Shown here: positions 2,392 to 34,064 of the stretch, piece by piece
Layout of the letters: each line of letters opens with the position of its first letter
Position numbering within the stretch: the stretch's first letter is position 1
IMG/VR virus record: IMGVR_UViG_3300042922_000923
Span: 1 to 64,000 of that record
Source of the DNA: a virus
Reading direction: 5' to 3' (one strand)
DNA length: 64,000 nt
Notes under the pieces: generated by a model
Told to the model about the DNA's origin: nothing
The model's input: the letters and a program-made list of their open reading frames with translations, nothing else
Database searches by the model: none
Made by a program: the position numbers and the translations under genes

Positions 2392-2448
2392 CTTAGTGTT
2401 ACGAATTAATCTTCAATTTTTTCATCATAAAATCTTATTCTCATTTAA

Positions 2449-2682
2449 CTAGTCTCCTTCTTTATTTTTTAAAGGACACCATCGAGGACTTGTTTTTAGA
2501 ACTAGAGGACTAAGGGTTGTATTAGTTCCAAACCCTACAAAATTATTTTGAGGAAGTCCATGTTTATCTTTTAACTTATATACTTTAGGCTGATTGCAGT
2601 AATAGTGCTTTCTTCCTATTCTTCCTCGTTGAGATTCCGAGCGACCTTGCACTTCACAAAAGTTGCATTCTTTACATTTCAT
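2449..2682 (-). CDS. Small Cys-rich (Zn-binding) phage protein
   Basis: CKEC...HYYC...KTSPRWCP; paralogous to the N-half of 3918..4331. Confidence 0.6.
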   Translation of the reverse strand: MKCKECNFCEVQGRSESQRGRIGRKHYYCNQPKVYKLKDKHGLPQNNFVGFGTNTTLSPLVLKTSPRWCPLKNKEGD

Positions 2683-3002
2683 TATTCTACCTCACTTTCT
2701 TTATGTTGTTCTGGCTTTACCCACTCAAACCCTTTATATAATTCTCCATATCTTTCTCTTGCAACTGGAAAAGCATCACCATCTGAATCTGTTATATAAT
2801 AATCACATACAATCCATTTAGGCCATGGGTATGGTAAACCTGTTCTATGCTTCATTCGTGGTACTGCATCAATTATTTGACCTTTAAAAAAATTACCAGC
2901 TTTTCCAGTGTATCTAACTTTTAAAACCTCGCCATTATATAAGGTGCTTGACCTTAATTTATCCATTTCTTTTTTATTCATATAATATAGTCTCCTTAGC
3001 AC
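2682..3002 (-). CDS. Hypothetical phage protein
   Basis: ORF overlapping the next start codon. Confidence 0.55.
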   Translation of the reverse strand: MLRRLYYMNKKEMDKLRSSTLYNGEVLKVRYTGKAGNFFKGQIIDAVPRMKHRTGLPYPWPKWIVCDYYITDSDGDAFPVARERYGELYKGFEWVKPEQHKESEVE

Positions 3003-3041
3003 AATGATACTTGTATGCTATATTTTAGTAAGATACTATTT

Positions 3042-3863
3042 CTATTCTATCTTATTTAATTTTGCATATTTACCATATAACTCTAACGCTTTTTGATTGT
3101 ATGCTATGCCAGCCTCTTTTTCAGTTTTAAATATCTCAGATTTATACTCTACACGTTGCTTTTGTATCCTTGCTACGTAGCCACCTTTAATCTTATAGAC
3201 ACCTACGTATTTCTTATTACTTTTCTTTACTCCTTGATTAACTTTAGACACTATCTCATGCATTTCTTCCCCATACTTGTCTAATACTTTGTTATATGCT
3301 TCTAGTTGTTCATCTAGTGTTCCAAGTTCATTTAGTATACCTTTGTACAGAGATATATCTGTTATATTTTCATATTTGATTTTTAACATATTATATATAA
3401 CCGCTGATTCGTAATCAAATTCTGTATATGCTGATATCTTTTTCCCTTTGGGGGTAGTATATTCCATTCGGAATTTTCTACCCTTTTTCTTATTTATAGT
3501 AACACCAGTGTATCCTGTTTGTGTTTTTGAGTATTGTATTTGTATATCTGACTGTCTCCCATTTATTAAATTTTCAAGGCGATAATCATATTCATCCATA
3601 TTTTTAAATACTATTAGTTTATAACCAAGTATTTTTGCTATATATGCTCTTACCGTTGTTGATTTATATTTTCCATCGGAGTCTTTAAATGTTAGGTGTA
3701 TCTCATTACGTGTGTCACCCTTATAAGGTTTTATAAGTAAGCTTATTGATTTATTTTCAAGTGCATTATTTATTTCTTCCGAATCTGTTTTTATAACTTT
3801 ATCAGTATTTTTTATTTTTATACTATACATACCTTCTAACCTCCATATTTTATAAGTGACCAC
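3042..3863 (-). CDS. AP2-domain protein with degenerate HNH module
   Basis: FKNMDEYDYRLENL (HNH-like), GYTGV and KYVGV...YVARI...FKTEKEAGIAYNQKALELYGKYAKLN (AP2). Confidence 0.75.
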   Translation of the reverse strand: MVTYKIWRLEGMYSIKIKNTDKVIKTDSEEINNALENKSISLLIKPYKGDTRNEIHLTFKDSDGKYKSTTVRAYIAKILGYKLIVFKNMDEYDYRLENLINGRQSDIQIQYSKTQTGYTGVTINKKKGRKFRMEYTTPKGKKISAYTEFDYESAVIYNMLKIKYENITDISLYKGILNELGTLDEQLEAYNKVLDKYGEEMHEIVSKVNQGVKKSNKKYVGVYKIKGGYVARIQKQRVEYKSEIFKTEKEAGIAYNQKALELYGKYAKLNKIE

Positions 3864-3917
3864 ATATTATTCTCTATAAAATCTTCACTTTACTACATAA
3901 TTTTTTAGTATTGCGCA

Positions 3918-4331
3918 TTATGCCTGTAGTTTAACTGCTCTAAATTTATAATTATTAAATTCCATTTCACTTGCTTTAAAAGCCTTTGATTGACTTGAAT
4001 AAACTTTTGCTTTTTTAATATCCGCATCTACAATAGCATATCTATTGCCTTGAAATATGAAACTTTTACCTATATAATATCCATCTGAAAATGGATTTGA
4101 AGTAGTTTCTTCCGCTTTTAATACGTATTGTTCTTTTTGTACATTCTCCGCAATATCTATATTCCTTTTAGGACACCATTGAGGGCTTGTTTTATATTCA
4201 CTTGATTTTATGAAACTTCCTATACTTAATTTTGATGGTTCATGGCAATAGTGTCTTTCCTTATCCCATCCTTTTTGACTTTTATATTTGTGATATTCAC
4301 ATTCTTTGCATTTAGGTATTTTACTGTTCAA
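3918..4331 (-). CDS. Cys-rich hypothetical phage protein
   Basis: CKECEYH...HYC...KTSPQWCP plus C-terminal domain. Confidence 0.6.
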   Translation of the reverse strand: MNSKIPKCKECEYHKYKSQKGWDKERHYCHEPSKLSIGSFIKSSEYKTSPQWCPKRNIDIAENVQKEQYVLKAEETTSNPFSDGYYIGKSFIFQGNRYAIVDADIKKAKVYSSQSKAFKASEMEFNNYKFRAVKLQA

Positions 4332-4376
4332 AATCCTCTCACCTCACTTTACTACGTCAAATCTACAGATTACCTA

Positions 4377-4745
4377 TCAATTATGACTTATGATTCTGTT
4401 TTCTGCTGTTTCACTCCATAGAGGAATAGCATTATCTTTATGGTTAGTTATAACCCAACAACCCTCTAGCATTTCAACTTCTCCAGTAAAGTCTGTGTCA
4501 TCACCTGTAACTGTTCCTATTTGATGGACTGTCATTCCTTCAAATATTTTCTCACCAGCAACGGTTTTAGAGTCTGTAAGCTGTCCTATGCTATCTTCAT
4601 CGACTTCTATATAAACAGGATTATCTACACTGATTCTTGGGTTTATATAGTATCTAGTCTTTTCATAAAGTGAGTCCACATGTAGAGATCCTAGTCTCCA
4701 TATACCTAGTTCTTTATCTTTTCCTCTAAATAATATTTCTCTCAT
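4377..4745 (-). CDS. YopX family protein
   Basis: MREILFRGK...W..G.L...V..DSIGQLT...G.KIFEG signature. Confidence 0.85.
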   Translation of the reverse strand: MREILFRGKDKELGIWRLGSLHVDSLYEKTRYYINPRISVDNPVYIEVDEDSIGQLTDSKTVAGEKIFEGMTVHQIGTVTGDDTDFTGEVEMLEGCWVITNHKDNAIPLWSETAENRIISHN

Positions 4746-4782
4746 TTAAAACACCCTTTCTATTATATCTTAGTATTGTGAA

Positions 4783-5064
4783 CTATTTCCTTTCTTCTGG
4801 TTTTCCACAATATCTACAATGATCTTCATCATAACTTCCATCTTCTTGTTCATAATCACATTCTCGTGTTGGTGATGTTGGACAATACCAATCAAATTCT
4901 TTATTGCAAATTTTGCACTTAGCAGTACCCCACGAGTTAACTGTAATATTCTCATGACCACATGCTGACTGAATAACTTCAATTTTATTTTTAGCATCTG
5001 CAATAGTTTTATAAGCATCGTCAATAGACTTTCTCAATAACTTTATATGTTCTTTTATTTCCAT
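4783..5064 (-). CDS. Cys-rich hypothetical phage protein
   Basis: CKIC...WYCPTSP...C.Y...CRYCGKPEERK; RBS present. Confidence 0.65.
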   Translation of the reverse strand: MEIKEHIKLLRKSIDDAYKTIADAKNKIEVIQSACGHENITVNSWGTAKCKICNKEFDWYCPTSPTRECDYEQEDGSYDEDHCRYCGKPEERK

Positions 5065-5085
5065 TTAAAACACCCTTTCTATTTT

Positions 5086-5184
5086 TCATTTAGCTAAACT
5101 TAAGATAATTAAGGTTCCCATAGTATATATACTTACCATTATTAGTGAACTTATTACAATGTATTGTTTAGTATCCCTCTGCAT
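5086..5184 (-). CDS. 32-aa hydrophobic peptide
   Basis: MQRDTKQYIVISSLMVSIYTMGTLIILSLAK, with GGGGTG RBS; below ORF-track cutoff. Confidence 0.45.
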   Translation of the reverse strand: MQRDTKQYIVISSLIMVSIYTMGTLIILSLAK

Positions 5185-5206
5185 AAATTCCACCCCTATA
5201 AATTTA

Positions 5207-6013
5207 TTATTTAACCTTGTATCTACCTGCTTCTTTCTTTCCTTTTCCTTTTACAAAGCTGTCTATCCATCTAATTAAACCACTAGCATAAAATCTATAA
5301 TGCCCTGCTACTCCCCAGGATTCTGTATGTCTCATATAAGAGATAAAAGACTTTATATTAGTAGTTGAAGCTGTAAAAACATAAACAACTTTGTCATCAT
5401 TTATAACCTGTACCTTTTTAGTTCTAGAAGCAATTTTCTTCTTATTAGGATCTACCTTATACTTCATACCACCAGCTTCCTTGTATACTGTTTCTCTATC
5501 CATTTGAATTAAGGATATGTACATTAATGAAAATAATGCCAAACAACTTAATCTAGTTGATAAGGATTTAGCTACTTTTTGTCTATATTCATCTAGCATA
5601 GTTCCAATAACAGGGTTTTTAGTTTCTTCAGTATATACTAAAGGTTTGACAGCAGGCTTATATTTTGAGATATCAATATTTGCTGCGCAAAGTCCTACCG
5701 TTGTACCTATAGCATCTACGTTCATAGTAGCTTCTATATGAAACTTTGGAAATTCCCCTGTGTCATCTACTTTAAAATAAATATAATTCTTACATGTACC
5801 AGAAAACATAAAACTAGGTAATTCTATATTATCCATCATGTCTTCCCTTAAAATTAATACACCTTCCTTAATAGGAAAATTAAATGAATCTACAAGAACA
5901 TCTTTTTTTGAATCCACGTAGTCTTGTATATCTTGTATACTCTTACTTGTTAGGTCAATAGTTGAATAACCCCTAAGTTCTGCTAATGATTTAAACTTTC
6001 CATCAAATTTCAT
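5207..6013 (-). CDS. Hypothetical phage protein with C-terminal W-x-V-x-GH-x-R motif
   Basis: 268 aa; WGVAGHYR...WIDSFVKG; has its own sigma-A-like promoter. Confidence 0.6.
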   Translation of the reverse strand: MKFDGKFKSLAELRGYSTIDLTSKSIQDIQDYVDSKKDVLVDSFNFPIKEGVLILREDMMDNIELPSFMFSGTCKNYIYFKVDDTGEFPKFHIEATMNVDAIGTTVGLCAANIDISKYKPAVKPLVYTEETKNPVIGTMLDEYRQKVAKSLSTRLSCLALFSLMYISLIQMDRETVYKEAGGMKYKVDPNKKKIASRTKKVQVINDDKVVYVFTASTTNIKSFISYMRHTESWGVAGHYRFYASGLIRWIDSFVKGKGKKEAGRYKVK

Positions 6014-6043
6014 TTATTTATCACTCTCTCTTTCATTAACTAT

Positions 6044-6072
6044 ATTATACCCAAAGTTACACGTAAGTGCAA
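6044..6072 (-). promoter_or_regulatory. Sigma-A-like promoter TTGCAC-N17-TATAAT containing a 16-bp operator
   Basis: Minus strand TTGCACttacgtgtaactttgggTATAAT. Confidence 0.65.
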
Positions 6073-6222
6073 TACCTTTTTATAAACTTTTTTAATAAAT
6101 TTTGGAATTTTTTAATAGTATCTTGAATCAAGCACAATCTTAATCTTAGCATAGTTTAGTTTACATAACTTTTACTATGTATAGACCTTTAGAAAAGAAT
6201 AAAGAGGTTGTACCTCTTTAAT

Positions 6223-8664
6223 TCATTTAGTATTGCTTTCTACCTCCTTAGCATTTTTAATAACCAGAGCTTTAGCTTCTTTGCTTTTGTTACGCTCAAC
6301 AGTATCTAAATATTTTGGTGGAAGTTTTGTAATAAACCTAGCAAATCCATCATTACACTTTATTAGGTTTAAACTGCTATATCTAGGCAATGTAAGTAGA
6401 TCCTCTAGTTCAAATGGTGCTAGTTCCTCTTTTAATTCATCATAGTTTGCCTTATCACAGCCACTTACCATGACGTAGCTTGTGTTAGCATTTTTAAGCT
6501 CTGGTCTAATATACTTAATTTGTTCTAAGCTGTGGCATGAGATAATAGGCTTACAAGTCTTCTTAGCAATTCTATTAATATGCTTCTTGAGAAGTGATTG
6601 ACAATCAGGTATTTGATATAATTCATCAAAAATTATATTAACTTTAGTTCTTTCATGCTCTGGAATATTAACATGTCTTATTTGTAGTGCACCAAGTATC
6701 TTTGTTAACCAGTAAGTGCAATAAACATCACGCTCTGGATCTGTAGGGAACATTTCCTCTGGCATACGTAAACAGATTAGTTGAGGCTTTTGCATTTCTA
6801 TAACTAAATCTATATTATTAGTACAATCCTTTTTAAGCATTAATTCTGTATAAGTGTTGTCTTTAATAGCATCAATTCTATTTAGAATACCTTGTATTTT
6901 AGTACCCTGAGTTCCTATAATTTGTGGAGGATTATCTTTAGTTCCATTAGACCATTTATCTAATTCTTCTAGATATCCAAGGTATTCCTCCAAATTCTCT
7001 AGCTGATTCTGTGGAACTTTTTCAATATAGTCATGTCTTTTTACATGATTCTCTAGAACTCCAAATACATCTTTAATTGGACCATTATTAATAAAAACTA
7101 CATAAGAGGCTGCTTTTAAGTACCTCTTCATTTGTGGTTCTAATTTAGTATCTGCATTTATAGAATCAATAAATGTTACTAACTGTTGAGCTTTCATTTT
7201 GGTACATTTATATACCTCAAACATGCTATCATTCTTAGGCTTAATTTCATTATATCCTAACCCTTGTAACTGCTCATATTTAGAACAATCTATGCTAAGA
7301 ACTTTATTTTTTGGGACATGCTTTGAAATTTCATCAGATACTTCACAATTACCACAAAAATCAAAGTTTATTACTGTCTCATTTGCTAATACTGCATCCT
7401 CAACTAAATGACAGATTAGATTAGTTTTTCCTGCTCTAGTTGGCCCTATGATACACAAAGTTAAATTTCTATAGTCAAAGTCAGTAGATAAATAAGCTTT
7501 AGTTGGAAATCCATGATATACATTGGTTCCAATACACATAACTCCCTCTTTAAGTTCATCTGGAACCTGTGTTTCTGTATTATTTATTGCAGTTATTTTA
7601 CCGTATTCAGATAGAATACTTCTTCCCGGGATCTGTAAAAACTCTGCTGCTTCATTTATACTCATAGTGTTCATTTGAATGTTAGGCCAAATATCTTCTA
7701 CAAATAATTTTTTCATCTTTTTTCTTGAATATATAAGCTCATTATTAGCTTCTTGTCCCATTACTCCAAAACCATGACAAGCACTTATAGCATTGTCTCT
7801 ACGTCTGTCTCTATCTTTAGAATCAGAAATCACTGCAATTTGAGTATTTATAACATCTAAATCTTTTTTATCTGTCGTAGCCTTTTGTAGCTTTTTACGC
7901 TCTTCACATAAGCTATTTATATCGGCCCATAGCGAATCAGCTGCTTTTTCCTGACTTCCTCCTGTGAAGTCATCAAGTACCTTTAGAAAATCTGAAAAAA
8001 GTTTTGCTGAAGTTAATACTGTAGATTTTGCTATATATTCTAGTGAAGTTTGTTTCTTATCAACAACTTTGAGATCATCTATTTTTCTCATTGTCCTATT
8101 GTACGTAGTTTGCCAACCAAATTGGCTACGAGGTATAAAATTATACACAATAGCAACTCTATCATCTTCTTTCATAATATCTATTACACTTAATATACTT
8201 CTAAGTGGTTCTATGGTCCTTTGGTCTGTATGAAGAGAAAGTGCATCCTCCTTTTTGTAAGCCATTTGATATACTTCAATGTCATTTGAAAAAGGTTTTA
8301 TTTTTTCATCTAATATTTTAACTGTAGCTCTAGGCCAGATTAATTTAACTTTATCCTCTAGCTGTTTTTCAAACCGTTCTGGAACAATAAAATAAAAGCT
8401 TGCATTACCATTTTGTATATCCATCATAAATGATATTTTATAGCTAGTTTCAAATTTTATCTTCTTTCGTTCTCTTTGAATACGCTTATCTAAGGATCTA
8501 TAAGTGTGAGCTATAGCCTTTGCAAGTGGTATACTATTAAATTCGCCTATAGACTTATGAGTTATAATTTGAAGATACTTATAGTTTGGATTAACTAGTT
8601 CAAAATAGTCTGATAACTTTATAGAACGCTCTTTTTTAAATATAGCTGCTGGAGAGAAATTCAT
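6223..8664 (-). CDS. VirB4/VirD4(TraG)/HerA-class P-loop ATPase
   Basis: 813 aa; Walker A IIGPTRAGKT, Walker B IIFDE, SCHSLEQ motif, C-terminal LPRY...FITKLPP. Confidence 0.75.
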   Translation of the reverse strand: MNFSPAAIFKKERSIKLSDYFELVNPNYKYLQIITHKSIGEFNSIPLAKAIAHTYRSLDKRIQRERKKIKFETSYKISFMMDIQNGNASFYFIVPERFEKQLEDKVKLIWPRATVKILDEKIKPFSNDIEVYQMAYKKEDALSLHTDQRTIEPLRSILSVIDIMKEDDRVAIVYNFIPRSQFGWQTTYNRTMRKIDDLKVVDKKQTSLEYIAKSTVLTSAKLFSDFLKVLDDFTGGSQEKAADSLWADINSLCEERKKLQKATTDKKDLDVINTQIAVISDSKDRDRRRDNAISACHGFGVMGQEANNELIYSRKKMKKLFVEDIWPNIQMNTMSINEAAEFLQIPGRSILSEYGKITAINNTETQVPDELKEGVMCIGTNVYHGFPTKAYLSTDFDYRNLTLCIIGPTRAGKTNLICHLVEDAVLANETVINFDFCGNCEVSDEISKHVPKNKVLSIDCSKYEQLQGLGYNEIKPKNDSMFEVYKCTKMKAQQLVTFIDSINADTKLEPQMKRYLKAASYVVFINNGPIKDVFGVLENHVKRHDYIEKVPQNQLENLEEYLGYLEELDKWSNGTKDNPPQIIGTQGTKIQGILNRIDAIKDNTYTELMLKKDCTNNIDLVIEMQKPQLICLRMPEEMFPTDPERDVYCTYWLTKILGALQIRHVNIPEHERTKVNIIFDELYQIPDCQSLLKKHINRIAKKTCKPIISCHSLEQIKYIRPELKNANTSYVMVSGCDKANYDELKEELAPFELEDLLTLPRYSSLNLIKCNDGFARFITKLPPKYLDTVERNKSKEAKALVIKNAKEVESNTK

Positions 8665-8921
8665 TATAAAACCTCCTTTATAGCTCTTAATATAAAGAAT
8701 ATTGCTACAGATAACGTTGAATACTTAGCAGCCTTTTTCTGGCCACACATGTAGCATAGAAGGGATATTAAACAAACTAGTAAGCATATCCAATAAGAAT
8801 TATCTATAACACCTATTAGGATTCCCCTAAGCACATCTCCTATGACACCTTGTATCCAGCTTACAACTCGTTCCTTACTTGCCTCTAATGCCTCTGATGC
8901 TGTTTTTACTACAACTTCCAT
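8664..8921 (-). CDS. Small membrane protein (VirB3-like position)
   Basis: Two hydrophobic helices; overlaps ATPase start. Confidence 0.55.
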   Translation of the reverse strand: MEVVVKTASEALEASKERVVSWIQGVIGDVLRGILIGVIDNSYWICLLVCLISLLCYMCGQKKAAKYSTLSVAIFFILRAIKEVL

Positions 8922-8932
8922 ATCTGCACCTC

Positions 8933-9370
8933 CTAAAATGTTTCATCTATAAGATTAAATAGCCAAGGAATTAATTTAACAACTAAATAAGCAATCAAAT
9001 ATTTCATACCTATTTGTGGAATTTCTTCTCTTCTCTTAGCAATTAGGCTTTTTCCAATCTCTAGGATACATGCTATTATACAAATCTTACCTATACTGAA
9101 TTGGAGAATAGTAATTATTTTTGAACTAGCAGCACCGACTCTTCCCATTGCCTCAGCTGCACTTTTATCTTCTGCAAAAGCCTGAACACACATCATTGAT
9201 AATGCTAAGGAGAAAACACACACTTTTCTAAGATTCTCATTCTTTAATATTTTACCTGCAATATCCTCATACTTCTTAACATTTTTATCTCTTATTATTT
9301 CATTAAGGGTAACATTTCCTCTTTCCATTTCAAAAAATTCATTGAAGCTCATTGTTAATGCTGTACTCAT
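8933..9370 (-). CDS. VirB2/TrbC pilin-like membrane protein
   Basis: Leader motif, hydrophobic segment ending AFA, two further helices (KYLIAYLVVKLIPWLF). Confidence 0.55.
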   Translation of the reverse strand: MSTALTMSFNEFFEMERGNVTLNEIIRDKNVKKYEDIAGKILKNENLRKVCVFSLALSMMCVQAFAEDKSAAEAMGRVGAASSKIITILQFSIGKICIIACILEIGKSLIAKRREEIPQIGMKYLIAYLVVKLIPWLFNLIDETF

Positions 9371-9385
9371 AATTTCAAACTCCCC

Positions 9386-9718
9386 CTATAATATTGCTGT
9401 AAACAGCTTATATCCAAATTTTATAGTTTCAGTTGTTAATTTATAAAGAAGATCAAAACCTTCTTTTAATAATTCCTTTTGAGCTTCAGGTGAACTATCT
9501 CTAGCAAAAACCTGTGCTGTTTCAGATGGTGTAATCAAGTAATAACTTGATATAGTTCCTGCTATAATGGTAATAGCTACAAGTTTACTTGCTTGCTCTG
9601 GAGTAAGGTGTGGTACATTGTCTAGAAAACTTCCTGAATCCTTTAAATCACTATACTTAATTTCGTTCCTTTGAACTTTCATAAAATCATGAATACTCAT
9701 TGTAATCTCTTTTTTCAT
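9386..9718 (-). CDS. Membrane protein with shared TMSxxxF..RG leader
   Basis: Paralogous N-terminus, one TM helix, VFA motif. Confidence 0.6.
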   Translation of the reverse strand: MKKEITMSIHDFMKVQRNEIKYSDLKDSGSFLDNVPHLTPEQASKLVAITIIAGTISSYYLITPSETAQVFARDSSPEAQKELLKEGFDLLYKLTTETIKFGYKLFTAIL

Positions 9719-9730
9719 AACTTCTTCTCC

Positions 9731-10027
9731 TTATAAAATTGATGCTGTTGATGTGATAACCTCATAGGCTACCTCTAGTAATACTGCTGTTGTGATATAT
9801 AAAACTTCTATTGCACTTACTGTATTATTTGTATCTAGTGCCATAGCTTTTACTGGTAGAGGTAAAGACATAGGCATGAAACAAACTAAAGATATTAGTA
9901 GTAACCTTGTTTTTAAATTTAATTCTGAAGGAACCTTTAAGTCTGTTACTGATAAATTTCCTCTGTTTATTTCCATAAATTCGTGAATTGACATTGTAAT
10001 TTCCTTTCTCATTTTAATAGCCTCCAT
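9731..10027 (-). CDS. Membrane protein with shared TMSxxxF..RG leader
   Basis: Paralogous N-terminus, hydrophobic segment, AMA motif. Confidence 0.6.
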   Translation of the reverse strand: MEAIKMRKEITMSIHEFMEINRGNLSVTDLKVPSELNLKTRLLLISLVCFMPMSLPLPVKAMALDTNNTVSAIEVLYITTAVLLEVAYEVITSTASIL

Positions 10028-10066
10028 GCATAATATTTATTTTAATTGACATACTAAGTTTATAAA

Positions 10067-10609
10067 TTAAATTTGACGTAGAATATCTAAACTATTAGAA
10101 TAAGCTACTTGTTCCATCATTGAGCTAAAAGCTAAAGTAACATCAGGCATATGAAGATTTGGAATAGTTTCTAGTATTAACTTAAAGAAGTCATCTGCAA
10201 AGTAGACTGTACAAAAAGCTAGTCCATATTTTAAAACTTCAGATGGTATGCTTTTCCAGAATCTATTTTTTATAGCAGCTCTAACTTCATGTATGCCTGC
10301 AAATGCACAAGTTCCATAGGTTATATTTTTAATAACATTTAATAGAATCTCAGGTTTTGGTACAGTTACTATCTGCTCAGTGGATAATGAAGAAGCTGGA
10401 ATTGCAGTAGTAGCAAATGTAACTGTTGGGTTAGCTATAGCACATACTGTAGCTAATATAGCAACTGAGACAGCATATTTAAAATCGTCATTATTTACTA
10501 TTTTTTCAAAAGGAGTTTCTAATCCATTCTCCTTAATTATTTCATTTACTGTTAAATTTCCACGTTCCATTTCCATAAATTGACTTATTGACATTGTTAC
10601 TTTTTTCAT
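10067..10609 (-). CDS. Pilin-like membrane protein with shared leader
   Basis: Full-length similarity to 8933..9370 (IP..(V/G).KY..A(F/Y)), TFA motif. Confidence 0.6.
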   Translation of the reverse strand: MKKVTMSISQFMEMERGNLTVNEIIKENGLETPFEKIVNNDDFKYAVSVAILATVCAIANPTVTFATTAIPASSLSTEQIVTVPKPEILLNVIKNITYGTCAFAGIHEVRAAIKNRFWKSIPSEVLKYGLAFCTVYFADDFFKLILETIPNLHMPDVTLAFSSMMEQVAYSNSLDILRQI

Positions 10610-10708
10610 TTTTATTCCTCCAGAATTAAATTATTTTTTTTGAATTTACGAATAATTAAAATTAAAATGGTTAAACTAATATCATAAAATTAAAGCGAGG
10701 TGATTATT

Positions 10709-10777
10709 ATGTTCTCTTTCGTAGTTGGCGCAAGTTTCATGTATGCCTTAGCAGAAGCTGCTTGTAGATTTTTCTAA
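10709..10777 (+). CDS. 22-aa hydrophobic peptide
   Basis: GAGGTGA RBS then MFSFVVGASFMYALAEAACRFF; plus-strand terminator downstream. Confidence 0.55.
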   Translation: MFSFVVGASFMYALAEAACRFF

Positions 10778-10892
10778 TTCTTAATATTTTCTTAAGATTT
10801 ATATAGATATACACAAAACTGGAACCTTTCGCTTTTGCCCTGCATATGCTAACGTGTAGCGTAACGCAGTGAGCAGAGCGAGTTAGCTTACT

Positions 10893-10930
10893 GGCCTAAG
10901 TCTGCATATGTGGATTTAGGCTTATTTTTT
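10893..10930 (+). terminator. Plus-strand terminator
   Basis: CCTAAGTCTGCAT/ATGTGGATTTAGG stem whose mismatches are G·U only on the plus strand, followed by a T-run. Confidence 0.55.
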
Positions 10931-11012
10931 ACCAAAAATGCTTTTTTTAAGCATATTTTTATGGAAATATATGGTTTTCGTTAGACCTTAACTGACTTTA
11001 AAATTACATAAA

Positions 11013-11207
11013 TTATTCTGTACTTTGTTCTTTAGTATTATTAGAATGTTTGTGTTTTTCCATATCTTCTCTTATTAAGCCTTTAACATAGTAGCTAAAA
11101 TCTTTCCCTTCTAGATACTTCAGCATGTCATCTTCTGTCTTTTTAAAGCTCACCGTTTTTGCTGGTGGCCTGTCTTTCTTTTTCCCCTGAGTTGTCTTAG
11201 TATTCAT
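11013..11207 (-). CDS. Ribbon-helix-helix DNA-binding protein
   Basis: KTVSFK...FSYYVKGLIREDM pattern. Confidence 0.65.
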   Translation of the reverse strand: MNTKTTQGKKKDRPPAKTVSFKKTEDDMLKYLEGKDFSYYVKGLIREDMEKHKHSNNTKEQSTE

Positions 11208-11346
11208 TGTTTGTCCTCCTAATGTCTTTTGATAATATATCTTATACAGAAGTTCACTGAAATGTGCAGTAATTTCATGAAATTTTTTGAAATTTCAATA
11301 AAAATTTGTATAAAAAAAGGTGCTGCCTTTGCAACACCTTTAAAAA

Positions 11347-11571
11347 TCAGGTTCCTATAATTTCATCAATAGAAGTCAGTACCTTTTCATTCTTTACTTT
11401 TTGTTCGTTTTCCTCTTTTTTAGGTTCTATTTGAACACTTTTGCAGTTGTCTAAGTCATTATTTATCAAATAATTGATGTAATTACTGAAGTCAAAGCCA
11501 CGTTCTTTAGCTTTGGTTTCTGCTTTTTGCAAAATATTAGTATCTAAACTGATATTTTTACTTTTTTTCAA
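11347..11571 (-). CDS. ParR-like RHH partition adaptor
   Basis: SKNISLD...FSNYINYLINND RHH with acidic/hydrophobic tail; coupled to parM. Confidence 0.7.
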   Translation of the reverse strand: MKKSKNISLDTNILQKAETKAKERGFDFSNYINYLINNDLDNCKSVQIEPKKEENEQKVKNEKVLTSIDEIIGT

Positions 11572-12460
11572 ACTTGCTCACTCCTACCTGATAGAACGCT
11601 TTAGCGTTTAGGTATATATCATCCTTTTTAACTGGTTCCGGTAAGTATTTCTTTAGATCCCATGAACCACCACCCATAAAGTTTCTTATAGATGTATGAT
11701 ATTCCTTAAATCTATTAACAACATTCATAATAATTTCATCTGTGTGATCCTGAAGTATTTTATCTATGAGATTAGTTACATCAATATCTTTACCATCAAC
11801 AATAATTTTATTATCCTTTATAATTTTTACAGCTCTTAAAGTATCATAGGATACTCTATGCTTTGCTTTAATAGCTTGTACAACTTTATCATAGAGCTTT
11901 AACATGCCTAGTTCAAATGTTCCAGTCTTAACTAGTGTAAGGTCATTAAATAAGCTTACATCAACAGTAAGACCTCCAATATCTATAACAATGTTATCAG
12001 TTCCTTCAAAGTCTTGAGGGTTTAAAATAAATAATCCTGCTGACTGTGGAAATACAATACACTTTCTAATTGTAAAACGTTTTGGTACATTATTGATTAC
12101 AATAGTCTCAGTAATATCCTCTAAGCTCTCCATTAGCTCTTGTTTCTGATCCTGAAAGTACTCAGCTGGAAGACCAGTAATAAGATAAATATCAGCTACA
12201 GTATCATTTTTCATTTGTCTTGCTATTGCTGTAAATAAGCATAGCCTAAAAATTGGATCTTGAATCTTATTAAGTGCAGTACTAAATTTTCCTGACCTTT
12301 CTCCAATAGTATAGCTCTTTCCATTGTGTTCTATTTTTATAGCTTTTTTATTTACCTCATTTGTACCTTCTACAAGTGTACTTAAAAATATGTCTGTTCC
12401 CTTTGCTCCACATACTTTTGTATGTAGATATCCTACATCAATACCTAAAATATAGCTCAT
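11558..12460 (-). CDS. parM: ParM/StbA actin-like partition ATPase
   Basis: GIDVGYLHTK, TGLP, PQSAG, IDIGGLTVD, GGGS actin-fold motifs. Confidence 0.9.
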   Translation of the reverse strand: MSYILGIDVGYLHTKVCGAKGTDIFLSTLVEGTNEVNKKAIKIEHNGKSYTIGERSGKFSTALNKIQDPIFRLCLFTAIARQMKNDTVADIYLITGLPAEYFQDQKQELMESLEDITETIVINNVPKRFTIRKCIVFPQSAGLFILNPQDFEGTDNIVIDIGGLTVDVSLFNDLTLVKTGTFELGMLKLYDKVVQAIKAKHRVSYDTLRAVKIIKDNKIIVDGKDIDVTNLIDKILQDHTDEIIMNVVNRFKEYHTSIRNFMGGGSWDLKKYLPEPVKKDDIYLNAKAFYQVGVSKFEKK

Positions 12461-12481
12461 TCTAAAAATTCCTCCCTTAAA

Positions 12482-12577
12482 TTATGTGTATGTTATGCTC
12501 ATGTTATACACACATGTTTCATTATTTTATACTTCTCAAGAACATTATATGTAAATTATGCGCATGTTGTCAACATT
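12482..12577 (-). promoter_or_regulatory. parC-like centromere iterons overlapping the parM promoter
   Basis: 11-bp-period repeats TTATGTGTATG/TTATGCTCATG/TTATACACACA and TTATATGTAAA/TTATGCGCATG; minus-strand TTGACA-N18-TATAAT at 12573-12544. Confidence 0.65.
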
Positions 12578-13182: not shown

Positions 13183-13232
13183 TACTGCTCTTCTCCCTCT
13201 TATTCTGACTTTTGATTATACTATTTTAATTA

Positions 13233-13463: not shown

Positions 13464-13491
13464 CTCCTTCCTAATATATTAGTATTGCGAA

Positions 13492-13689
13492 CTACTGATT
13501 TAATAATTCTTCATAAGTAAGTTCTTTAATTTGCTTAACCTCATAAATTAATACGCTATTAATAACATCGTTTTTAAATCTTTCACTTTTTAATGTATTT
13601 CTCATTGATTCTGTAAGTTTTTCCTCTGTATCACTTTCAAATGTAACATTTTCATTTTTATTTAAACTAACTTTTGCTTGATATAACAT
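13492..13689 (-). CDS. Hypothetical protein
   Basis: AGGAGG RBS, 65 aa. Confidence 0.55.
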   Translation of the reverse strand: MLYQAKVSLNKNENVTFESDTEEKLTESMRNTLKSERFKNDVINSVLIYEVKQIKELTYEELLNQ

Positions 13690-14582: not shown

Positions 14583-14596
14583 GATTTTTCCCTCCT

Positions 14597-14902: not shown

Positions 14903-14910
14903 AATTTTAT

Positions 14911-23016: not shown

Positions 23017-23029
23017 ACTAATCCTCTAG

Positions 23030-26111: not shown

Positions 26112-26130
26112 TTAATCATCCCCCTTAAAT

Positions 26131-26176
26131 ATAAAAAAGTGAGCTTAACCTAAATTATTAGATTAAACCCACTTAG
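26131..26176 (-). promoter_or_regulatory. Phage promoter-terminator element (CTAAGTGG-N9-AATAATTT inside a hairpin, then U-tract)
   Basis: 17-bp stem with three G·U pairs; nearly identical copy at 32650-32694. Confidence 0.7.
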
Positions 26177-26185
26177 AAACTTAAT

Positions 26186-28468: not shown

Positions 28469-29413
28469 CTATATTATCATTTGATGAATTTCCTGAAGTT
28501 CTAGTATTAAATTCTTTAAGTTATCCTTATTTACACTAAAGCCTCCATTAATAGACTTCAAAACTACTACATCACTTTTAATTTCATATACTCCAATACA
28601 ACCTTCAATACATTGTGATTCTTTAGTATCCTGTATATTTTCAGATGTTCCTTGTGCTTTTAATTCTTTTATTATTCCCATTGAAGACATGTCAAACTTT
28701 ACTGTTGCTGGTTTTAGACCATATTTTTCACCAATTATTATACAAGCTTCTTTGCTAGTTCCTAATCTTTTAGCTTCTACAAGTAACTGTTCTCTTGAAA
28801 GTTTAGCTTTTCCATTCAAGTATAAAACCTCTCTTCTTTTTTCTATATTTTTCTTTACCTTTGCTAGTATCTTTAAATACAATCTTGATACATATGACTG
28901 AGATATATGAAGTCTGTTAGCTATACTAAGTTGTGATTCATTCTTAAATGCTCTAGAAGTTAGTATGTCTTTATCCTTAGGATCTAGTGTCTCTATTACT
29001 TCTTTAAGTTCAAGCAGCTGAATATTTTTTATAGCATCTTCTTCGCAATCCATAGTGTCTGGAATAACTTCTTCTAGTTCTAATGTATTTCCTTCTTCAT
29101 TTGTATTTACAGGAGCATTTAGACTAGATACATCTAAGTGTTTCTTATTCTTTCTATGAAACATTAATAATTCGTTCATTACAAGCCTTGAAGCATAAGT
29201 TAGGAACAATATGTCTTTACTTATGTCATAGCTCTTATACGCTTTATGAAGTCCAATATATGCTACTTGAAATAAGTCTTCTCTCTCATATAAACCAAGC
29301 CAAGTAGAACAGGATTTATATAAAAAATTCTTAAATTGAATATATACTTCGTCAAGAGACATTTCCTTAGTTTCATTTTTTAATTTAATTAGCTTCTTAT
29401 CCATCAACTTCAT
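28469..29413 (-). CDS. Sporulation-type (SigF/G/K-like) sigma factor with C-terminal extension
   Basis: EDLFQVAYIGLHKAYKSYD, FLTYA, NELLMFHRK, SLNAPV..NEEG, SQ..IA..L.ISQSYVSRL. Confidence 0.85.
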   Translation of the reverse strand: MKLMDKKLIKLKNETKEMSLDEVYIQFKNFLYKSCSTWLGLYEREDLFQVAYIGLHKAYKSYDISKDILFLTYASRLVMNELLMFHRKNKKHLDVSSLNAPVNTNEEGNTLELEEVIPDTMDCEEDAIKNIQLLELKEVIETLDPKDKDILTSRAFKNESQLSIANRLHISQSYVSRLYLKILAKVKKNIEKRREVLYLNGKAKLSREQLLVEAKRLGTSKEACIIIGEKYGLKPATVKFDMSSMGIIKELKAQGTSENIQDTKESQCIEGCIGVYEIKSDVVVLKSINGGFSVNKDNLKNLILELQEIHQMII

Positions 29414-30421: not shown

Positions 30422-30461
30422 AAGTATACCCTCTTTCTATAAAAGTCTCTTTATACATAAA

Positions 30462-30503
30462 AAAGAAAGGATAAATGAAATTAATTCCATTTATCCCACA
30501 TAG
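30462..30503 (-). promoter_or_regulatory. Phage promoter-terminator element upstream of 5'-3' exonuclease
   Basis: CTATGTGG-N9-AATTAATTT with stem and U-tract. Confidence 0.6.
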
Positions 30504-30583
30504 AGGCAATTATTTATATTTATTTTTAGGAGGTGCATAAATATAACAACAGGATTTTAGTTATTTTTGCCTCTTAATCTATA

Positions 30584-32225: not shown

Positions 32226-32582
32226 GACTAAATCCCTCTTTTCTATTATTTTTAACGCGTGAGTACTCATTCTAAGTACTTAGATGACTAGTGAATTTGT
32301 AGAGTATAGCGTGAATATTTTATAAACATTATGCGTGAGGGAGAATGAGAAGTTTAATTCACTAGTCACCTAAATACTTAGTGCCAAAGCAGCAAAATTA
32401 ATAAATAAATTAATTAAAGGAGAATAACATATTATTGGCAAATACATTTAAACGCGATATTTGAAGAAAAAATTTGTAAAAGCTGCTTTGGCAAGAGTGC
32501 AAAGCACTCAATTAACTAACCAATATTTAGTTTTTTAATTCAATACTTTAACCCCTATATAAATATAAACAACTTAAAATTA

Positions 32583-32694
32583 AAATTATTTTTTAGTAGT
32601 CCACATAGAAACCTTTTTTTCTTTTTTTAAATTTTAGTTCCTATATAAATATAAAAGTGAGCTTAATCTAAATTATTAGATCAAACCCACTTAG
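32583..32694 (-). promoter_or_regulatory. Two tandem phage promoter elements upstream of the SSB leader
   Basis: CTAAGTGG site at 32670-32694 and CTATGTGG site at 32583-32608. Confidence 0.65.
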
Positions 32695-32714
32695 AAGAAT
32701 TATTTTGTACGTTA

Positions 32715-32969
32715 TTAGTTATGCTGCCTAGAGTATTCTTCTATAATACTTGTCACTTTAGCTTTAGCATCAAGCTCAGTTATGTTATAGTCATATTTTC
32801 TATCTTCTAGTACACATAAGGCTTCTATCCAGCTGAGTCCACCACGTTCAGCTAGTCGCTCTATGGTCTGTGCATGGTTTAGTATCGCCTGTTTTTCATG
32901 CAATTTTATTAAAGTTAATGGTATGTGTCCCTTTGTCCTTGAATCTAGTATTGGAAATCTATTTTCCAT
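32715..32969 (-). CDS. Hypothetical phage protein
   Basis: HE.QA..NH.QT.ERLAERGGL.W.E motif. Confidence 0.6.
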   Translation of the reverse strand: MENRFPILDSRTKGHIPLTLIKLHEKQAILNHAQTIERLAERGGLSWIEALCVLEDRKYDYNITELDAKAKVTSIIEEYSRQHN

Positions 32970-32998
32970 GTTACTTCCCCCCTTTTTAATATTGTGTA

Positions 32999-33169
32999 CT
33001 ATTCACTTTTTTCAGTTTCAAAAGAAATTATAGTTTTAAATTTTACTGCAAATTGTCTTTCACATTCTTCACAATCTGTTATAAATTCACCTTCCATGTC
33101 ATTTGGTTCAATATAATCTAACCCATCATGCTCATGTCCACACCAAGGGCATTTAATAGGAAAATCCAT
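32999..33169 (-). CDS. Small Zn-ribbon protein
   Basis: MDFPIKCPWCG...CEEC; GAGGTG RBS; read manually. Confidence 0.55.
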   Translation of the reverse strand: MDFPIKCPWCGHEHDGLDYIEPNDMEGEFITDCEECERQFAVKFKTIISFETEKSE

Positions 33170-33213
33170 TTCATATCACCTCACTTTTGTTCAAATTTTC
33201 TACATATGACGTA

Positions 33214-33354
33214 TTACTCTTCATCTTTACATCTGTCACAGATATGGTCCCCTTGAATGCCACAGTACTCACAATAAGTCTTCCCACAACATTCACAAGT
33301 ATCTAATTCCTCCATTTCATAGTCACAATATCCACAAAACATATTTTCTTCCAT
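33214..33354 (-). CDS. Small Cys-rich protein
   Basis: MEENMFCGYC...CECCG..YCEYC...ICDRC; read manually. Confidence 0.55.
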   Translation of the reverse strand: MEENMFCGYCDYEMEELDTCECCGKTYCEYCGIQGDHICDRCKDEE

Positions 33355-33542
33355 CTAAACCTCACCTCGAATTATAATTCACCTACTTTAATTTTATAGA
33401 AGATAGCTACTTTTCTATTATTAATTCCTTTATTCCATATCCTGTATGGTCTAAAATTACTATGCTTTTACCATCTTTGGTACATAATTCACACATAGGG
33501 AAGTCCTTAAGTATTTCTATTATGTCGCTTATAACCATTTCG

Positions 33543-33845
33543 CTACAATCTACAGTCTCCATCCAATTTTTCACCCCTTCCAGAGTATTCTTTCATTTTA
33601 TTATTCCTTAGAAAATCTCTTGCTTTTGTTAAATCATAAATTTCATAGCCTTGTTTTTCAAAGTATTCTAGTCCTATAAGCGAATCAAATCCTTGATAGA
33701 TATAATTACATTTAAACGTGCTGCCCTCAAAGGAGTATTCTTTTTTAATTATTAAATAGTTATGGTTCTGTTCAATAGCTTCTTTAACAATTCTTTCTGT
33801 ATTCTTCATTGTATCTAATGCAATTTGATGCATAATGCTCTCCAT
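33543..33845 (-). CDS. Hypothetical protein
   Basis: AAGGAGG RBS. Confidence 0.55.
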   Translation of the reverse strand: MESIMHQIALDTMKNTERIVKEAIEQNHNYLIIKKEYSFEGSTFKCNYIYQGFDSLIGLEYFEKQGYEIYDLTKARDFLRNNKMKEYSGRGEKLDGDCRL

Positions 33846-33875
33846 CTAATTTTCCTCCTTTTTTAGTATAATGAA

Positions 33876-34064
33876 CTAACCTTCTAAGTCATATTCTTTC
33901 TTTAGTTTCTCTATATCCAATTCAAAATCTGCATAATTATCGCACCAATCATTTTTACATTCAGGATAACCACATTCTCTATTACCATGTTTACATATCG
34001 AAGTACACGCTGTTTCATTTAATAATGCCTTAATTAATAATCGCTCTGTTGTCATATCATTCAT
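33876..34064 (-). CDS. Small Cys-rich protein
   Basis: 62 aa, several Cys. Confidence 0.5.
   Translation of the reverse strand: MNDMTTERLLIKALLNETACTSICKHGNRECGYPECKNDWCDNYADFELDIEKLKKEYDLEG

What the first reader, a model, noticed from the sequence alone, without database searches (positions are those of the whole stretch)
2393..33878. 16-bp motif that begins on the stop codon of small accessory genes: candidate cassette recombination site
Seen (minus strand): TAATTCGTAACACTAA (2393-2408), TAATGCGCAATACTAA (3905-3920), TAGTTCACAATACTAA (4770-4785), TAGTTCGCAATACTAA (13479-13494), TAGTACACAATATTAA (32986-33001), TAGTTCATTATACTAA (33863-33878) and a degenerate TAATACGTCATATGTA (33201-33216). 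In each case the first triplet is the stop codon of a short ORF, mostly Cys-rich, and in most cases the next RBS follows closely. I saw it only in the small-ORF clusters, not after core replication genes. It loosely resembles a Xer/tyrosine-recombinase binding arm; the 3905 copy is followed by TTATGTAG, similar to a XerD arm. Inference: an integron-like or dif-like gene-cassette shuffling system in phage accessory regions.
Basis: partly seen in the sequence, partly recalled or inferred. Interest (0 to 1): 0.7.

Follow-up and report, generated by a model that had tools for sequence, protein, structure and literature searches.

The report
Phage gene-junction motif anchored on stop codons
A 16-base signal that always starts exactly on the stop codon of a small gene recurs eight or nine times in one large soil phage; it is real and points the same way as the genes, but it has none of the hallmarks of an integron or dif site, and whether it joins gene cassettes or controls their expression is still open.

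Summary
All seven listed copies are at the stated coordinates. Six are strong and 33201 is doubtful. Two more strong copies lie outside the window in the same 131-kb phage record. The degenerate pattern gives 5 window hits against 0 in 100 shuffles. All 8 strong copies are co-oriented with the local genes. In 9 of 9 copies the first triplet is the in-frame TAA or TAG stop of an ORF of 12-137 aa.

The integron-like or dif-like reading is not supported:
- No tyrosine or serine recombinase was found in the record.
- There is no second arm, inverted partner or conserved structure.
- Nothing is conserved beyond the 16 nt.

The motif is absent from every related phage locus I could fetch. A 93-aa ORF that ends on the motif belongs to a family whose C-terminus is conserved down to 48% identity. 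In five other phages the same stop is followed at once by another gene, with no motif.

My best reading (about 0.3) is a lineage-specific head of small accessory-gene cassettes. It would be a short expression signal joined flush to resident stop codons, comparable to T4-type PeSL elements. Rivals are a termination-linked or processing signal in the mRNA, a promoter for one of the phage's sigma-like factors, and a stoperator-like roadblock. No transcript data or close relatives were reachable.

The parts
2393..2408 (-). Motif copy TAATTCGTAACACTAA. Its TAA is the stop of a 12-codon mini-ORF. A terminator-like hairpin starts 1 nt after it.
   Evidence: (PWM 19.6)
2406..2444 (-). 12-codon mini-ORF (MRIRFYDEKIED) with a strong Shine-Dalgarno sequence that lies in the end of the preceding gene. 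It ends on the motif.
2370..2391 (-). Intrinsic-terminator-like hairpin with a T run. It closes the accessory operon that holds copies 4770, 3905 and 2393.
3905..3920 (-). Motif copy TAATGCGCAATACTAA. It is the stop of the 137-aa ORF 3918-4331. A 74-nt leader and an HNH-endonuclease-family-like ORF (3042-3830) follow.
   Evidence: (22.1)
4770..4785 (-). Motif copy TAGTTCACAATACTAA. It is the stop of the 93-aa Cys-rich ORF 4783-5064. The next ORF (4377-4745, PHROG 98/8684) starts 24 nt later.
   Evidence: (23.9)
13479..13494 (-). Motif copy TAGTTCGCAATACTAA. It is the stop of the 65-aa ORF 13492-13689.
   Evidence: (24.6)
32986..33001 (-). Motif copy TAGTACACAATATTAA. It is the stop of the 56-aa zinc-ribbon-like ORF 32999-33169. 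The next start is 16 nt later.
   Evidence: (18.6)
33201..33216 (-). Doubtful, decayed copy TAATACGTCATATGTA. It is the stop of the 46-aa Cys-rich ORF 33214-33354. Its PWM score is below 9.
33863..33878 (-). Motif copy TAGTTCATTATACTAA. It is the stop of the 62-aa ORF 33876-34064. The next start is 17 nt later.
   Evidence: (19.4)
32655..32692 (-). Terminator-like hairpin that closes the accessory operon holding copies 33863, 33201 and 32986.
6200..6220 (-). Terminator-like hairpin behind the 813-aa gene. A sigma-A-like promoter follows it in the 5840-6222 spacer, at the head of the operon with copies 4770, 3905 and 2393.

Best explanation
The 16-mer TAR-TTC-RCA-ATA-CTA-A is a lineage-specific, strand-specific junction module in the small accessory-gene operons of an SPO1-like (Herelleviridae-like) soil phage. 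Its first triplet is used as the stop codon of the gene on its 5' side. The other 13 nt are untranslated and open the short leader of the gene or genes on its 3' side.

Most likely reading (about 0.3): it is the conserved head of moron-like cassettes, a short cis-acting expression signal for what follows. The same 16 nt, edged by TAA or TAG, stand at many junctions. They would therefore also be the place where cassettes are joined flush to a resident stop codon. The joining would be by short-homology recombination or nuclease-triggered repair between co-infecting relatives, as proposed for T4-type PeSL elements. A tyrosine recombinase is not involved.

Shown:
- the motif, its copy number and its orientation;
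- the obligatory overlap with the stop codon;
- its restriction to small-ORF operons;
- the absence of recombinase genes, of a second arm and of structure;
- an ancestral stop position at one junction.

Inferred:
- that it acts as an expression signal;
- that joining happens at it;
- the enzymes involved.
For: 1. Reality and orientation. The pattern gives 5 hits against 0 in 100 shuffles. There are 8 PWM sites scoring 14 or more in 131 kb, all co-oriented with the flanking genes.

2. Flush stop. In 9 of 9 copies the first triplet is the in-frame stop. There is never a gap, and the TAA at motif positions 14-16 is never the stop used. Position 3 varies only between A and G, the two letters seen that keep a stop, while other variable positions take three different bases.

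3. The stop is older than the motif. The nine members of the 93-aa ORF family (P0121-P0129), down to 48% identity, all end ...PEERK. In 5 of 5 IMG/VR loci holding a 50-53% homologue, that stop is followed by a few bases and the next gene, or by a promoter-like spacer, and by no motif. L257 keeps the order 93-aa family then Cys-module family, with different genes in between.

4. Clustering. Copies stand as 3 + 1 + 3 + 2, inside operons bounded by a promoter-like site and a terminator-like hairpin. Each copy heads 1-4 small ORFs with no or poor family matches.

5. One copy heads an HNH-endonuclease-family-like ORF, which is a mobile type of gene (phrog_99, E = 1.3e-9).

6. The copies share nothing beyond the 16 nt, so they are not duplications of gene ends.

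7. Precedent. PeSL elements of phages phi1 and RB49 start with the stop codon of the upstream gene, lie in hyperplastic regions and were shown to recombine into mini-circles (PMC2839356, passages read).
Against: - 16 nt is short for homologous recombination, and no RecA-family gene was found.
- No breakpoint at a motif was seen. Of 15 joints listed for related contigs in two soil runs, none ends within 100 nt of a copy. The joints that cross the 13479 copy end near 10.6-11.3 kb and 15.7-16.7 kb. No diverged contig was laid on any motif copy, so this is a weak test.
- The copy at 2393 heads no gene, only a terminator.
- The last gene of the 34-kb operon and the first genes of both operons fit a 5'-head model in one operon and a 3'-tail model in the other.
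- The motif is absent from all related DNA I could reach: 557 kb of PolA-linked loci gave 2 weak PWM hits. Two related records gave 0 hits at up to 3 mismatches. Five records sharing the 93-aa gene gave 14 hits at up to 2 mismatches, against 16 for the reversed control. Exchange between lineages is therefore not shown.
- What the 13 nt signal to the expression machinery is unknown.
Confidence: 0.3

Rival explanations
1. An RNA-level signal tied to translation termination or to processing between cistrons. The stop codon plus 13 nt is about the stretch of mRNA held by a ribosome with the stop in its A site (established knowledge of ribosome footprints). The untranslated 13 nt would be read in the transcript, either by a sequence-specific endoribonuclease or RNA-binding regulator that uncouples or shuts off the small accessory cistrons, or by the terminating ribosome itself to allow re-initiation.
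For: - Strand specificity: 8 of 8 strong copies are in the sense orientation.
- The 13 nt are never translated although two of three frames would allow a shorter junction. All 9 copies use frame 0, with naive odds of (1/3)^8 to (1/3)^9.
- The copy at 2393 sits in a 3' untranslated region just before a terminator, which suits an RNA element and not a promoter.
- The same genome cuts its transcripts at other gene junctions. Eight Pistol ribozymes score above the Rfam gathering threshold (53.8-68.3 bits), each within -13 to +21 nt of the upstream stop.
Against: - There is no conserved secondary structure (0 predicted pairs) and no Rfam match at the copies.
- No trans-encoded antisense partner does better than shuffled controls: the best non-self duplex is -14.5 kcal/mol, against -12.2 to -16.1 for six shuffles.
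- I know of no precedent for a 13-nt linear post-stop signal in phages.
- The last sense codons and C-terminal residues are not conserved.
- At the ribozymes the stop position varies, so flushness is not a general need of RNA elements here.
Confidence: 0.2
2. A promoter for host RNA polymerase carrying one of the phage's own sigma factors. The motif would hold a -10-like element plus an upstream specificity element, and transcription would start at or a few bases after the motif end.
For: - The phage encodes four sigma-70-family ORFs: 39126-39725, 28469-29413, 19238-19846 and 41156-41791. A fifth paralogue lies at 112746-113876.
- I could assign only about three other promoter-like classes by eye.
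- The motif ends 16-31 nt before the next start codon in 7 of 9 copies. By my reading of the spacers, this is similar to the distance for the other repeated promoter-like element.
- The motif is co-oriented with the genes.
- Short conserved oriented repeats in phages are often promoters (general knowledge).
Against: - The copy at 2393 would fire straight into a terminator 1 nt away.
- At 32986 and 33863 a start 5-7 nt after the motif would cut into the Shine-Dalgarno sequence.
- There is no -35-like partner. Nothing is conserved upstream, and the sigma-70-type scan flags only 1 of the 6 copies that lie in the two stretches it covered.
- A promoter gives no reason for the stop-codon rule.
- No single-subunit RNA polymerase was found. 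That search was not informative, because nothing matched in the control genomes either.
Confidence: 0.15
3. A stoperator-like DNA site. A phage-encoded protein would bind the asymmetric 16 bp inside operons and block elongating RNA polymerase in one orientation, switching off accessory genes.
For: - The site is asymmetric, has multiple copies, lies in short intergenic spaces and always has the same orientation relative to transcription. This is the pattern described for the 13-mer stoperators of mycobacteriophage L5 and relatives (PMC9283540, passages read).
- Similar unexplained 21-nt oriented repeats exist in phage TLS (PMC11447400, passages read).
Against: - No cognate repressor was identified.
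- The phage has no integrase and looks lytic, whereas stoperators serve lysogenic silencing.
- A DNA site gives no reason for the frame-0 stop rule.
- A roadblock directly before a terminator (2393) is redundant.
Confidence: 0.1
4. One reading: an attC-like or dif-like site cut and rejoined by a tyrosine recombinase (a phage integrase or host XerCD), giving integron-like cassette excision and insertion.
For: - The motif lies at the 3' end of small ORFs in arrays.
- The host's Xer system cannot be examined because the host is unknown.
Against: - There is no PF00589 or PF00239 in the record, while the controls gave matches.
- There is no inverted second arm or partner and no foldable bottom-strand structure.
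- Conservation stops at 16 nt.
- There are 8-9 copies, all in one orientation relative to the genes.
Confidence: 0.03
5. No function: leftovers of duplicated gene ends, or chance.
For: The two ORFs 2449-2682 and 3918-4331 are paralogues (E = 8e-7), and both lie just upstream of a copy.
Against: - 0 of 100 shuffles reach even 1 match of the degenerate pattern.
- The flanks of the copies share nothing beyond the motif.
- The upstream and downstream ORFs are otherwise not paralogues.
Confidence: 0.02

Closest known systems
PeSL (promoter-early stem-loop) cassettes of T4-type phages phi1 and RB49 (PMC2839356; passages read)
   Same: These are repeated intergenic elements in hyperplastic regions of small ORFans. 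They begin with the stop codon of the upstream gene and end at the start of the next gene. They are proposed, and shown by inverse PCR, to recombine and to move ORFan cassettes without a dedicated recombinase.
   Different: PeSLs are about 100 bp, carry a sigma-70 consensus promoter plus a stem-loop, and are degenerate composites. Here there is one sharp 16-mer with no stem-loop and no sigma-70 consensus. Recombination at it is not shown.
Stoperators of cluster A mycobacteriophages (PMC9283540; passages read)
   Same: They are short asymmetric sites present in many copies, lying in short intergenic spaces and strictly oriented with transcription.
   Different: Stoperators are 13-mers bound by the immunity repressor of temperate phages. 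No repressor or integrase is found here. In the passages I read, stoperators are not described as tied to stop codons.
21-nt oriented intergenic repeats of phage TLS and T1-like phages (PMC11447400; abstract and passages read)
   Same: They are direct repeats between genes, in the direction of transcription, in a lytic phage, and their function is unknown.
   Different: They lie about 76 nt upstream of start codons, there are 18-21 copies, and no relation to stop codons is reported.
Integron attC sites and Xer dif sites (recalled general knowledge, no call)
   Same: They are sites at the 3' end of promoterless cassette ORFs (attC), or short recombination sites (dif).
   Different: Both need a tyrosine recombinase and two inversely oriented binding arms, and attC also needs a folded bottom strand. 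None of these features is present here.
Self-cleaving ribozymes at gene junctions (Rfam Pistol, RF02679) in the same genome
   Same: They are RNA elements placed directly behind stop codons at junctions of small early-looking genes.
   Different: The ribozymes are structured elements of about 70 nt, and the stop lies at variable offsets from them. The 16-mer is unstructured, and its stop offset is fixed at zero.

Membership tests
Integron (attC / IntI) | Tyrosine recombinase (IntI) encoded beside the array | tested here: not met
   PF00589 gave 0 matches at E <= 1 in the 131-kb record, while 14 of 14 control genomes gave matches. The record is about 90% complete, so a gene in the missing part cannot be excluded.
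Integron (attC / IntI) | attC made of two pairs of inversely repeated binding sites that fold as a hairpin | tested here: not met
   The best inverted match of each copy within 160 nt is 9-11 of 16, equal to shuffled flanks, which have means of 9.0-10.6. RNAalifold predicts 0 pairs.
Integron (attC / IntI) | Excised circular cassettes with the junction at a fixed bond | not testable with these tools
   This needs inverse PCR or long reads from infected cells.
Xer / dif-like site | Site of about 28 bp with two arms in inverted orientation around a short spacer | tested here: not met
   Conservation ends after 16 nt (alignment A3). The octamer after copy 3905 is in 1 of 9 copies. There is no inverted partner.
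Xer / dif-like site | Host XerC/D (or XerS/XerH) acts on it | not testable with these tools
   The host is unknown. The record comes from a soil metagenome.
PeSL-type regulatory cassette | Begins at the upstream stop codon, in regions of small variable ORFs | tested here: met
   9 of 9 copies begin at the stop. 9 of 103 small ORFs carry the motif, against 0 of 88 larger ORFs.
PeSL-type regulatory cassette | Sigma-70 consensus promoter plus stem-loop inside the element | tested here: not met
   No structure is predicted. The sigma-70-type scan flags 1 of the 6 copies that lie in the two scanned stretches.
PeSL-type regulatory cassette | Gene gain or loss between close relatives has breakpoints in the element | tested here: inconclusive
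   No joint ends at a copy, but no diverged contig covers a copy. Closer relatives (P0122, P0123) could not be fetched.
Stoperator | Asymmetric site, many copies, one orientation relative to transcription, in intergenic spaces | tested here: met
   (8 of 8 strong copies).
Stoperator | Cognate immunity repressor in a temperate phage | tested here: not met
   No integrase was found, and no repressor was identified among the proteins scanned. Not all ORFs were scanned.
Phage-specific promoter | Cognate polymerase or sigma factor encoded | tested here: met
   Four sigma-70-family ORFs and a fifth paralogue. The search for a single-subunit RNA polymerase was uninformative.
Phage-specific promoter | Transcripts start at a fixed distance from the motif | not testable with these tools
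   No RNA data were available.
Known structured RNA families (Rfam 15) | Score at or above the family threshold | tested here: not met
   No match overlaps a copy in the gathering-threshold scan of the whole record. In the E <= 1 scan of 2200-5200, one sub-threshold match (26.3 bits against a threshold of 45) lies on the opposite strand over the terminator and ends at the last base of copy 2393.

The most novel reading that the evidence does not exclude
The stop codon is a working part of the signal. The motif would be a 'termination-anchored' element, consisting of the stop plus the 13 nt that lie in the mRNA channel of the terminating ribosome. Two versions are open. In one, it acts through the terminating ribosome to trigger cleavage, hand-over to the next cistron or decay. 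In the other, it is the target of a recombinase-independent system that inserts gene cassettes precisely at TAA/TAG stop codons. Either version would be a kind of gene-junction code not described for phages.
Probability: 0.15. Interest if true: 0.8.

Novelty: new variant of a known kind. Interest (0 to 1): 0.45.

Why it matters
Short oriented repeats between phage genes are common, and their function is mostly unknown. This one has an unusually strict and testable property: in every copy its first triplet is the stop codon in use.

If the motif is a cassette joint, it would show how large lytic phages of Gram-positive hosts swap small accessory genes, often host-takeover or anti-defence genes, without site-specific recombinases. 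If it acts with the terminating ribosome or as a processing site, it would add a new post-stop signal to bacterial gene expression.

The same genome also separates another block of small genes with self-cleaving ribozymes. That makes it a good model for how phages set off the units of their accessory genes.

Tried and rejected
- **Close relatives in public phage sets.** Megablast of 2000-14000 against INPHARED phages gave no match. Searching IMG/VR with single proteins (PolA, the 813-aa protein) gave none. Searching with a PolA alignment gave only relatives of 49% identity or less.
- **JGI metagenome scan.** It gave one 78% PolA relative, L106 (6 kb), which does not reach the motif region.
- **Exact-motif scans.** IMG/VR gave 81 stretches. 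None was a relative by tblastn, and one stretch had 2 hits. All listed stretches have a single hit and are taxonomically scattered. I read both results as chance.
- **Analogous stop-anchored motifs.** A look through 39 related loci found none.
- **Sequencing runs.** Four soil runs were listed. Two hold the stretch and may be its source, so they are not independent. No RNA holder was listed. In one search the main-strain contigs cover all four copies in 1-20000 without differences. Related contigs at 80-90% likeness did not lie on 905-6061 at all, apart from a 59-nt piece of the leader after copy 3905 (X2 record 8). This left nothing to compare at three of the copies.
- **Peptide reading of the motif.** In-frame read-through would give F/Y-x-I-L-K/R, but third codon positions are the best conserved. 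I rejected this reading (my own reading).
- **Fusion to the next ORF.** The frames differ between junctions, so read-through fusion is rejected.
- **Antisense guide RNA.** None is better than shuffled controls.
- **AP2 domains in ORF 3042-3830.** I recalled a resemblance to AP2 domains, but Pfam gives only E = 1.7, so I dropped it as a candidate binder.
- **ORF 20288-22303 (671 aa).** It has no Pfam or PHROG family and shares its first 85 aa or so with two other large ORFs of the record. It reads like a tail-fibre or spike-like protein (my reading). Nothing points to a polymerase.
- **Homologues of ORF 3918-4331.** None were found in the length range searched.
- **Literature.** A string search for the motif core found 14 papers, none on phage by title or abstract start. 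One five-term search on phage stop-codon and intergenic motifs found no description of such a motif. These two searches are all that lies behind my statement that it is not in print. Supplements were closed.

Full report
**What the window is.** The window is the first 64 kb of a 131,110-bp linear IMG/VR virus record that is about 90% complete. G+C is about 30%. Genes run on the - strand up to about 55.7 kb and on the + strand from there to about 68.5 kb. GC skew changes sign at the same place. For this motif, orientation relative to transcription therefore cannot be separated from orientation relative to a possible replication direction.

The DNA polymerase (34615-37359) is a family-A enzyme with an N-terminal UDG-family domain. 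Its best matches among deposited phages are Lysinibacillus and Bacillus myophages of the SPO1 group, at 37-42% identity. The record also holds an anaerobic ribonucleotide reductase, SNF2 and DnaB-type helicases and a GIY-YIG endonuclease. The two sequencing runs that hold the stretch are soil metagenomes.

**The observation.**
- The degenerate pattern has 5 matches in the window, against none in 100 shuffles.
- It has 6 matches in the whole record, against 0 for the reversed control.
- A PWM scan finds eight sites scoring 14 or more. Six are in the window on the - strand. Two are at 65726-65741 and 66045-66060 on the + strand, where the genes also run on +.
- The 33201 copy scores below 9 and is only a possible decayed copy.
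- In all nine copies the upstream open frame ends on the motif's first triplet, and each upstream ORF has a plausible ribosome-binding site.
- At 191 called stops, motif positions 4-16 score 13.6 or more at the copies and below 0 at every other stop listed. No copy lies a few bases behind a stop.
- Carriers are 9 of 103 ORFs of 140 aa or less, and 0 of 88 longer ORFs.
- Five of nine upstream ORFs have four or more cysteines.

**Anatomy.**
- The copies share nothing beyond the 16 nt.
- Position 3 is A or G only. Positions 5, 7, 8 and 9 vary more freely, and positions 4, 12 and 16 are invariant.
- The motif carries a second stop, TAA at positions 14-16, in the +1 frame, but no ORF ends there.
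- In seven copies the motif end lies 16-31 nt before the next start codon. One copy is followed by a 74-nt leader and an ORF that matches PHROG HNH-endonuclease families. One copy (2393) follows a 12-codon mini-ORF and is followed after 1 nt by a terminator-like hairpin.
- Three copies lie in one operon bounded by a sigma-A-like promoter near 6.0 kb and that terminator. Three more lie in an operon between a promoter-like site near 34.1 kb and a terminator-like hairpin at 32655-32692.

**Tests of the recombination-site reading.**
- The record has no tyrosine or serine recombinase domain, while the control genomes gave matches. It also has no RecA domain.
- No copy has an inverted partner within 160 nt better than shuffled flanks.
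- The alignment of the copies with their flanks has no predicted pair.
- The octamer that suggested a XerD arm follows one copy only.

The defining features of attC and dif sites are therefore not met.

**Relatives.** Nothing close is in the deposited phages or in IMG/VR.
- PolA proteins of 66-79% identity exist on Logan and JGI contigs. The only one I could fetch (L106, 6 kb) does not reach the motif region.
- The motif is absent from 557 kb of related loci, which gave two weak PWM hits.
- It is also absent from two related whole records at up to 3 mismatches.
- Exact-motif scans of IMG/VR and of the species genomes gave scattered hits with no relative among them, almost all single.
- Contigs of two soil runs carry the same arrangement. 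These runs may be the source of the record, so they are not independent.
- A related phage in those runs shows joints across the 10.6-16.7 kb region whose ends are far from the 13479 copy.

**One informative comparison.** The 93-aa ORF that ends on the 4770 copy has eight homologues in the protein collection with 48-74% identity. All nine proteins end with the same residues. The stop position is therefore older than the motif.

In five IMG/VR loci with 50-53% homologues, the same stop is followed within a few bases by another gene's start, or by a promoter-like spacer. None has the motif. In L257 a homologue of the Cys module of ORF 3918-4331 lies about 700 nt further on, with different genes in between. 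Those five records are not enriched for the motif: 14 hits at up to 2 mismatches, against 16 for the reversed control. In this lineage a motif-led segment thus stands exactly where other phages have other genes, joined flush to the old stop.

**What it is not.**
- It is not a known RNA family.
- It is not a structured RNA.
- It is not the target of an encoded antisense RNA.
- It is not a coding extension, because third codon positions are the best conserved.
- It is not a fusion signal, because the frames to the next ORF differ between junctions.

**Promoter question.** The phage encodes four sigma-70-family proteins and a fifth paralogue. It has at least three other repeated promoter-like classes. 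One is a roughly 55-nt composite element found at 8 distinct places in the window, against 0.42 pattern matches expected in shuffles.

A promoter reading therefore cannot be dismissed. However, it explains neither the stop-codon rule nor the copy that faces a terminator. At two copies, initiation a few bases downstream of the motif would cut into the ribosome-binding site.

**Weighing.** The one feature that separates the hypotheses is the flush, in-frame stop in 9 of 9 copies. A site that is read only as DNA, or only as a promoter, has no need of it.

Two readings make it natural:
- Junctions are formed at the stop codon, so the motif is the head of a cassette joined there. The PeSL elements are a precedent.
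- The terminating ribosome is part of the mechanism.

I put the first at about 0.3 and the RNA or termination reading at about 0.2. I put a sigma-dependent promoter at 0.15, a stoperator-like roadblock at 0.1 and the integron or Xer reading at 0.03. The rest is unassigned. None of the functional steps is shown.

**Novelty.** Oriented short intergenic repeats are a known kind of feature in phages. Examples are stoperators, the TLS repeats and PeSLs. The obligatory identity of the first triplet with the stop codon in use is, as far as my two literature searches go, not described. I class the finding as a new variant of a known kind, of moderate interest. It is held back by the lack of close relatives and of RNA data.

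Noticed in passing
outside the window: genome 119,996-125,654 (L130:1996-7654): A block of about 12 unrelated small, mostly acidic ORFs is separated at nearly every junction by a self-cleaving ribozyme. Eight Pistol ribozymes score above the Rfam threshold (53.8-68.3 bits against 34.5). Two spacers (119996-120086 and 122094-122188) have a hammerhead-like core by eye, and only one of them has a weak Rfam match (24.7 bits against 48.5). Each ribozyme starts within -13 to +21 nt of the upstream stop, and a conserved leader with a Shine-Dalgarno sequence follows. This ribozyme-separated operon in a phage may deserve a report of its own.
   Followed up: partly
window 26128-26177, 30450-30504, 32556-32609, 32642-32695, 37374-37427, 41004-41052, 45304-45355 (-), 63673-63727 (+); more copies outside the window: A composite element of about 55 nt. 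It starts with TCTAWRTGG, often continues with a hairpin and a T run, and ends with a TATATTTATATAGG-like box just before a start codon. It occurs at 8 distinct places in the window, against 0.42 pattern matches expected in shuffles. It is probably a terminator-plus-promoter unit for a phage sigma factor, standing in front of core replication genes.
   Followed up: partly
window 39126-39725, 28469-29413, 19238-19846, 41156-41791 (-); genome 112746-113876 (+): Four sigma-70-family ORFs were found by Pfam or NCBIfam, and a fifth paralogue by BLASTP. This is an unusually large set for one phage.
   Followed up: partly
window 5840-6222 and 18720-18875; genome 125125-125204: [quoted passage not shown]
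   Followed up: no
window 2248-2448 and 11208-11346; genome 116833-116946: A third repeated element (AAATTTCAATAAAT ... CATGAAATT) lies directly behind terminator hairpins.
   Followed up: no
window 20288-22303; genome 72453-73958 and 103414-106278: A 671-aa ORF with no Pfam or PHROG family lies among the replication genes. It shares its first 85 aa or so (64-66% identity) with two large ORFs in the structural region. This looks like a shared N-terminal anchor of tail fibres or spikes.
   Followed up: no
window 34615-37359 and proteins P0004, P0048, P0059, P0077-P0109: Many relatives of the UDG-PolA fusion are either about 675 aa long, ending at the same residue (after ...AAKAV), or carry intein or HNH domains. 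The polymerase gene is therefore often split or invaded at one site in this phage group. It is intact here.
   Followed up: no
window 2449-2682 and 3918-4331; L257:6956-7132: A small Cys module (CKEC ... SPxWCP) recurs as paralogues here (E = 8e-7) and as a 58-aa ORF in a distant large phage. In both phages it lies next to the 93-aa PEERK-ending family.
   Followed up: partly
window 3842-3900: The leader between motif copy 3905 and the HNH-like ORF also lies, with small indels, on a separate 413-nt contig of higher depth in run X2. It may be a mobile leader of homing-endonuclease genes.
   Followed up: no
outside the window: genome 118266-119428: A 1.16-kb stretch has no ORF and locally high G+C. 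It lies just before the ribozyme-separated block. It could be an origin, a packaging region or a non-coding RNA region.
   Followed up: no
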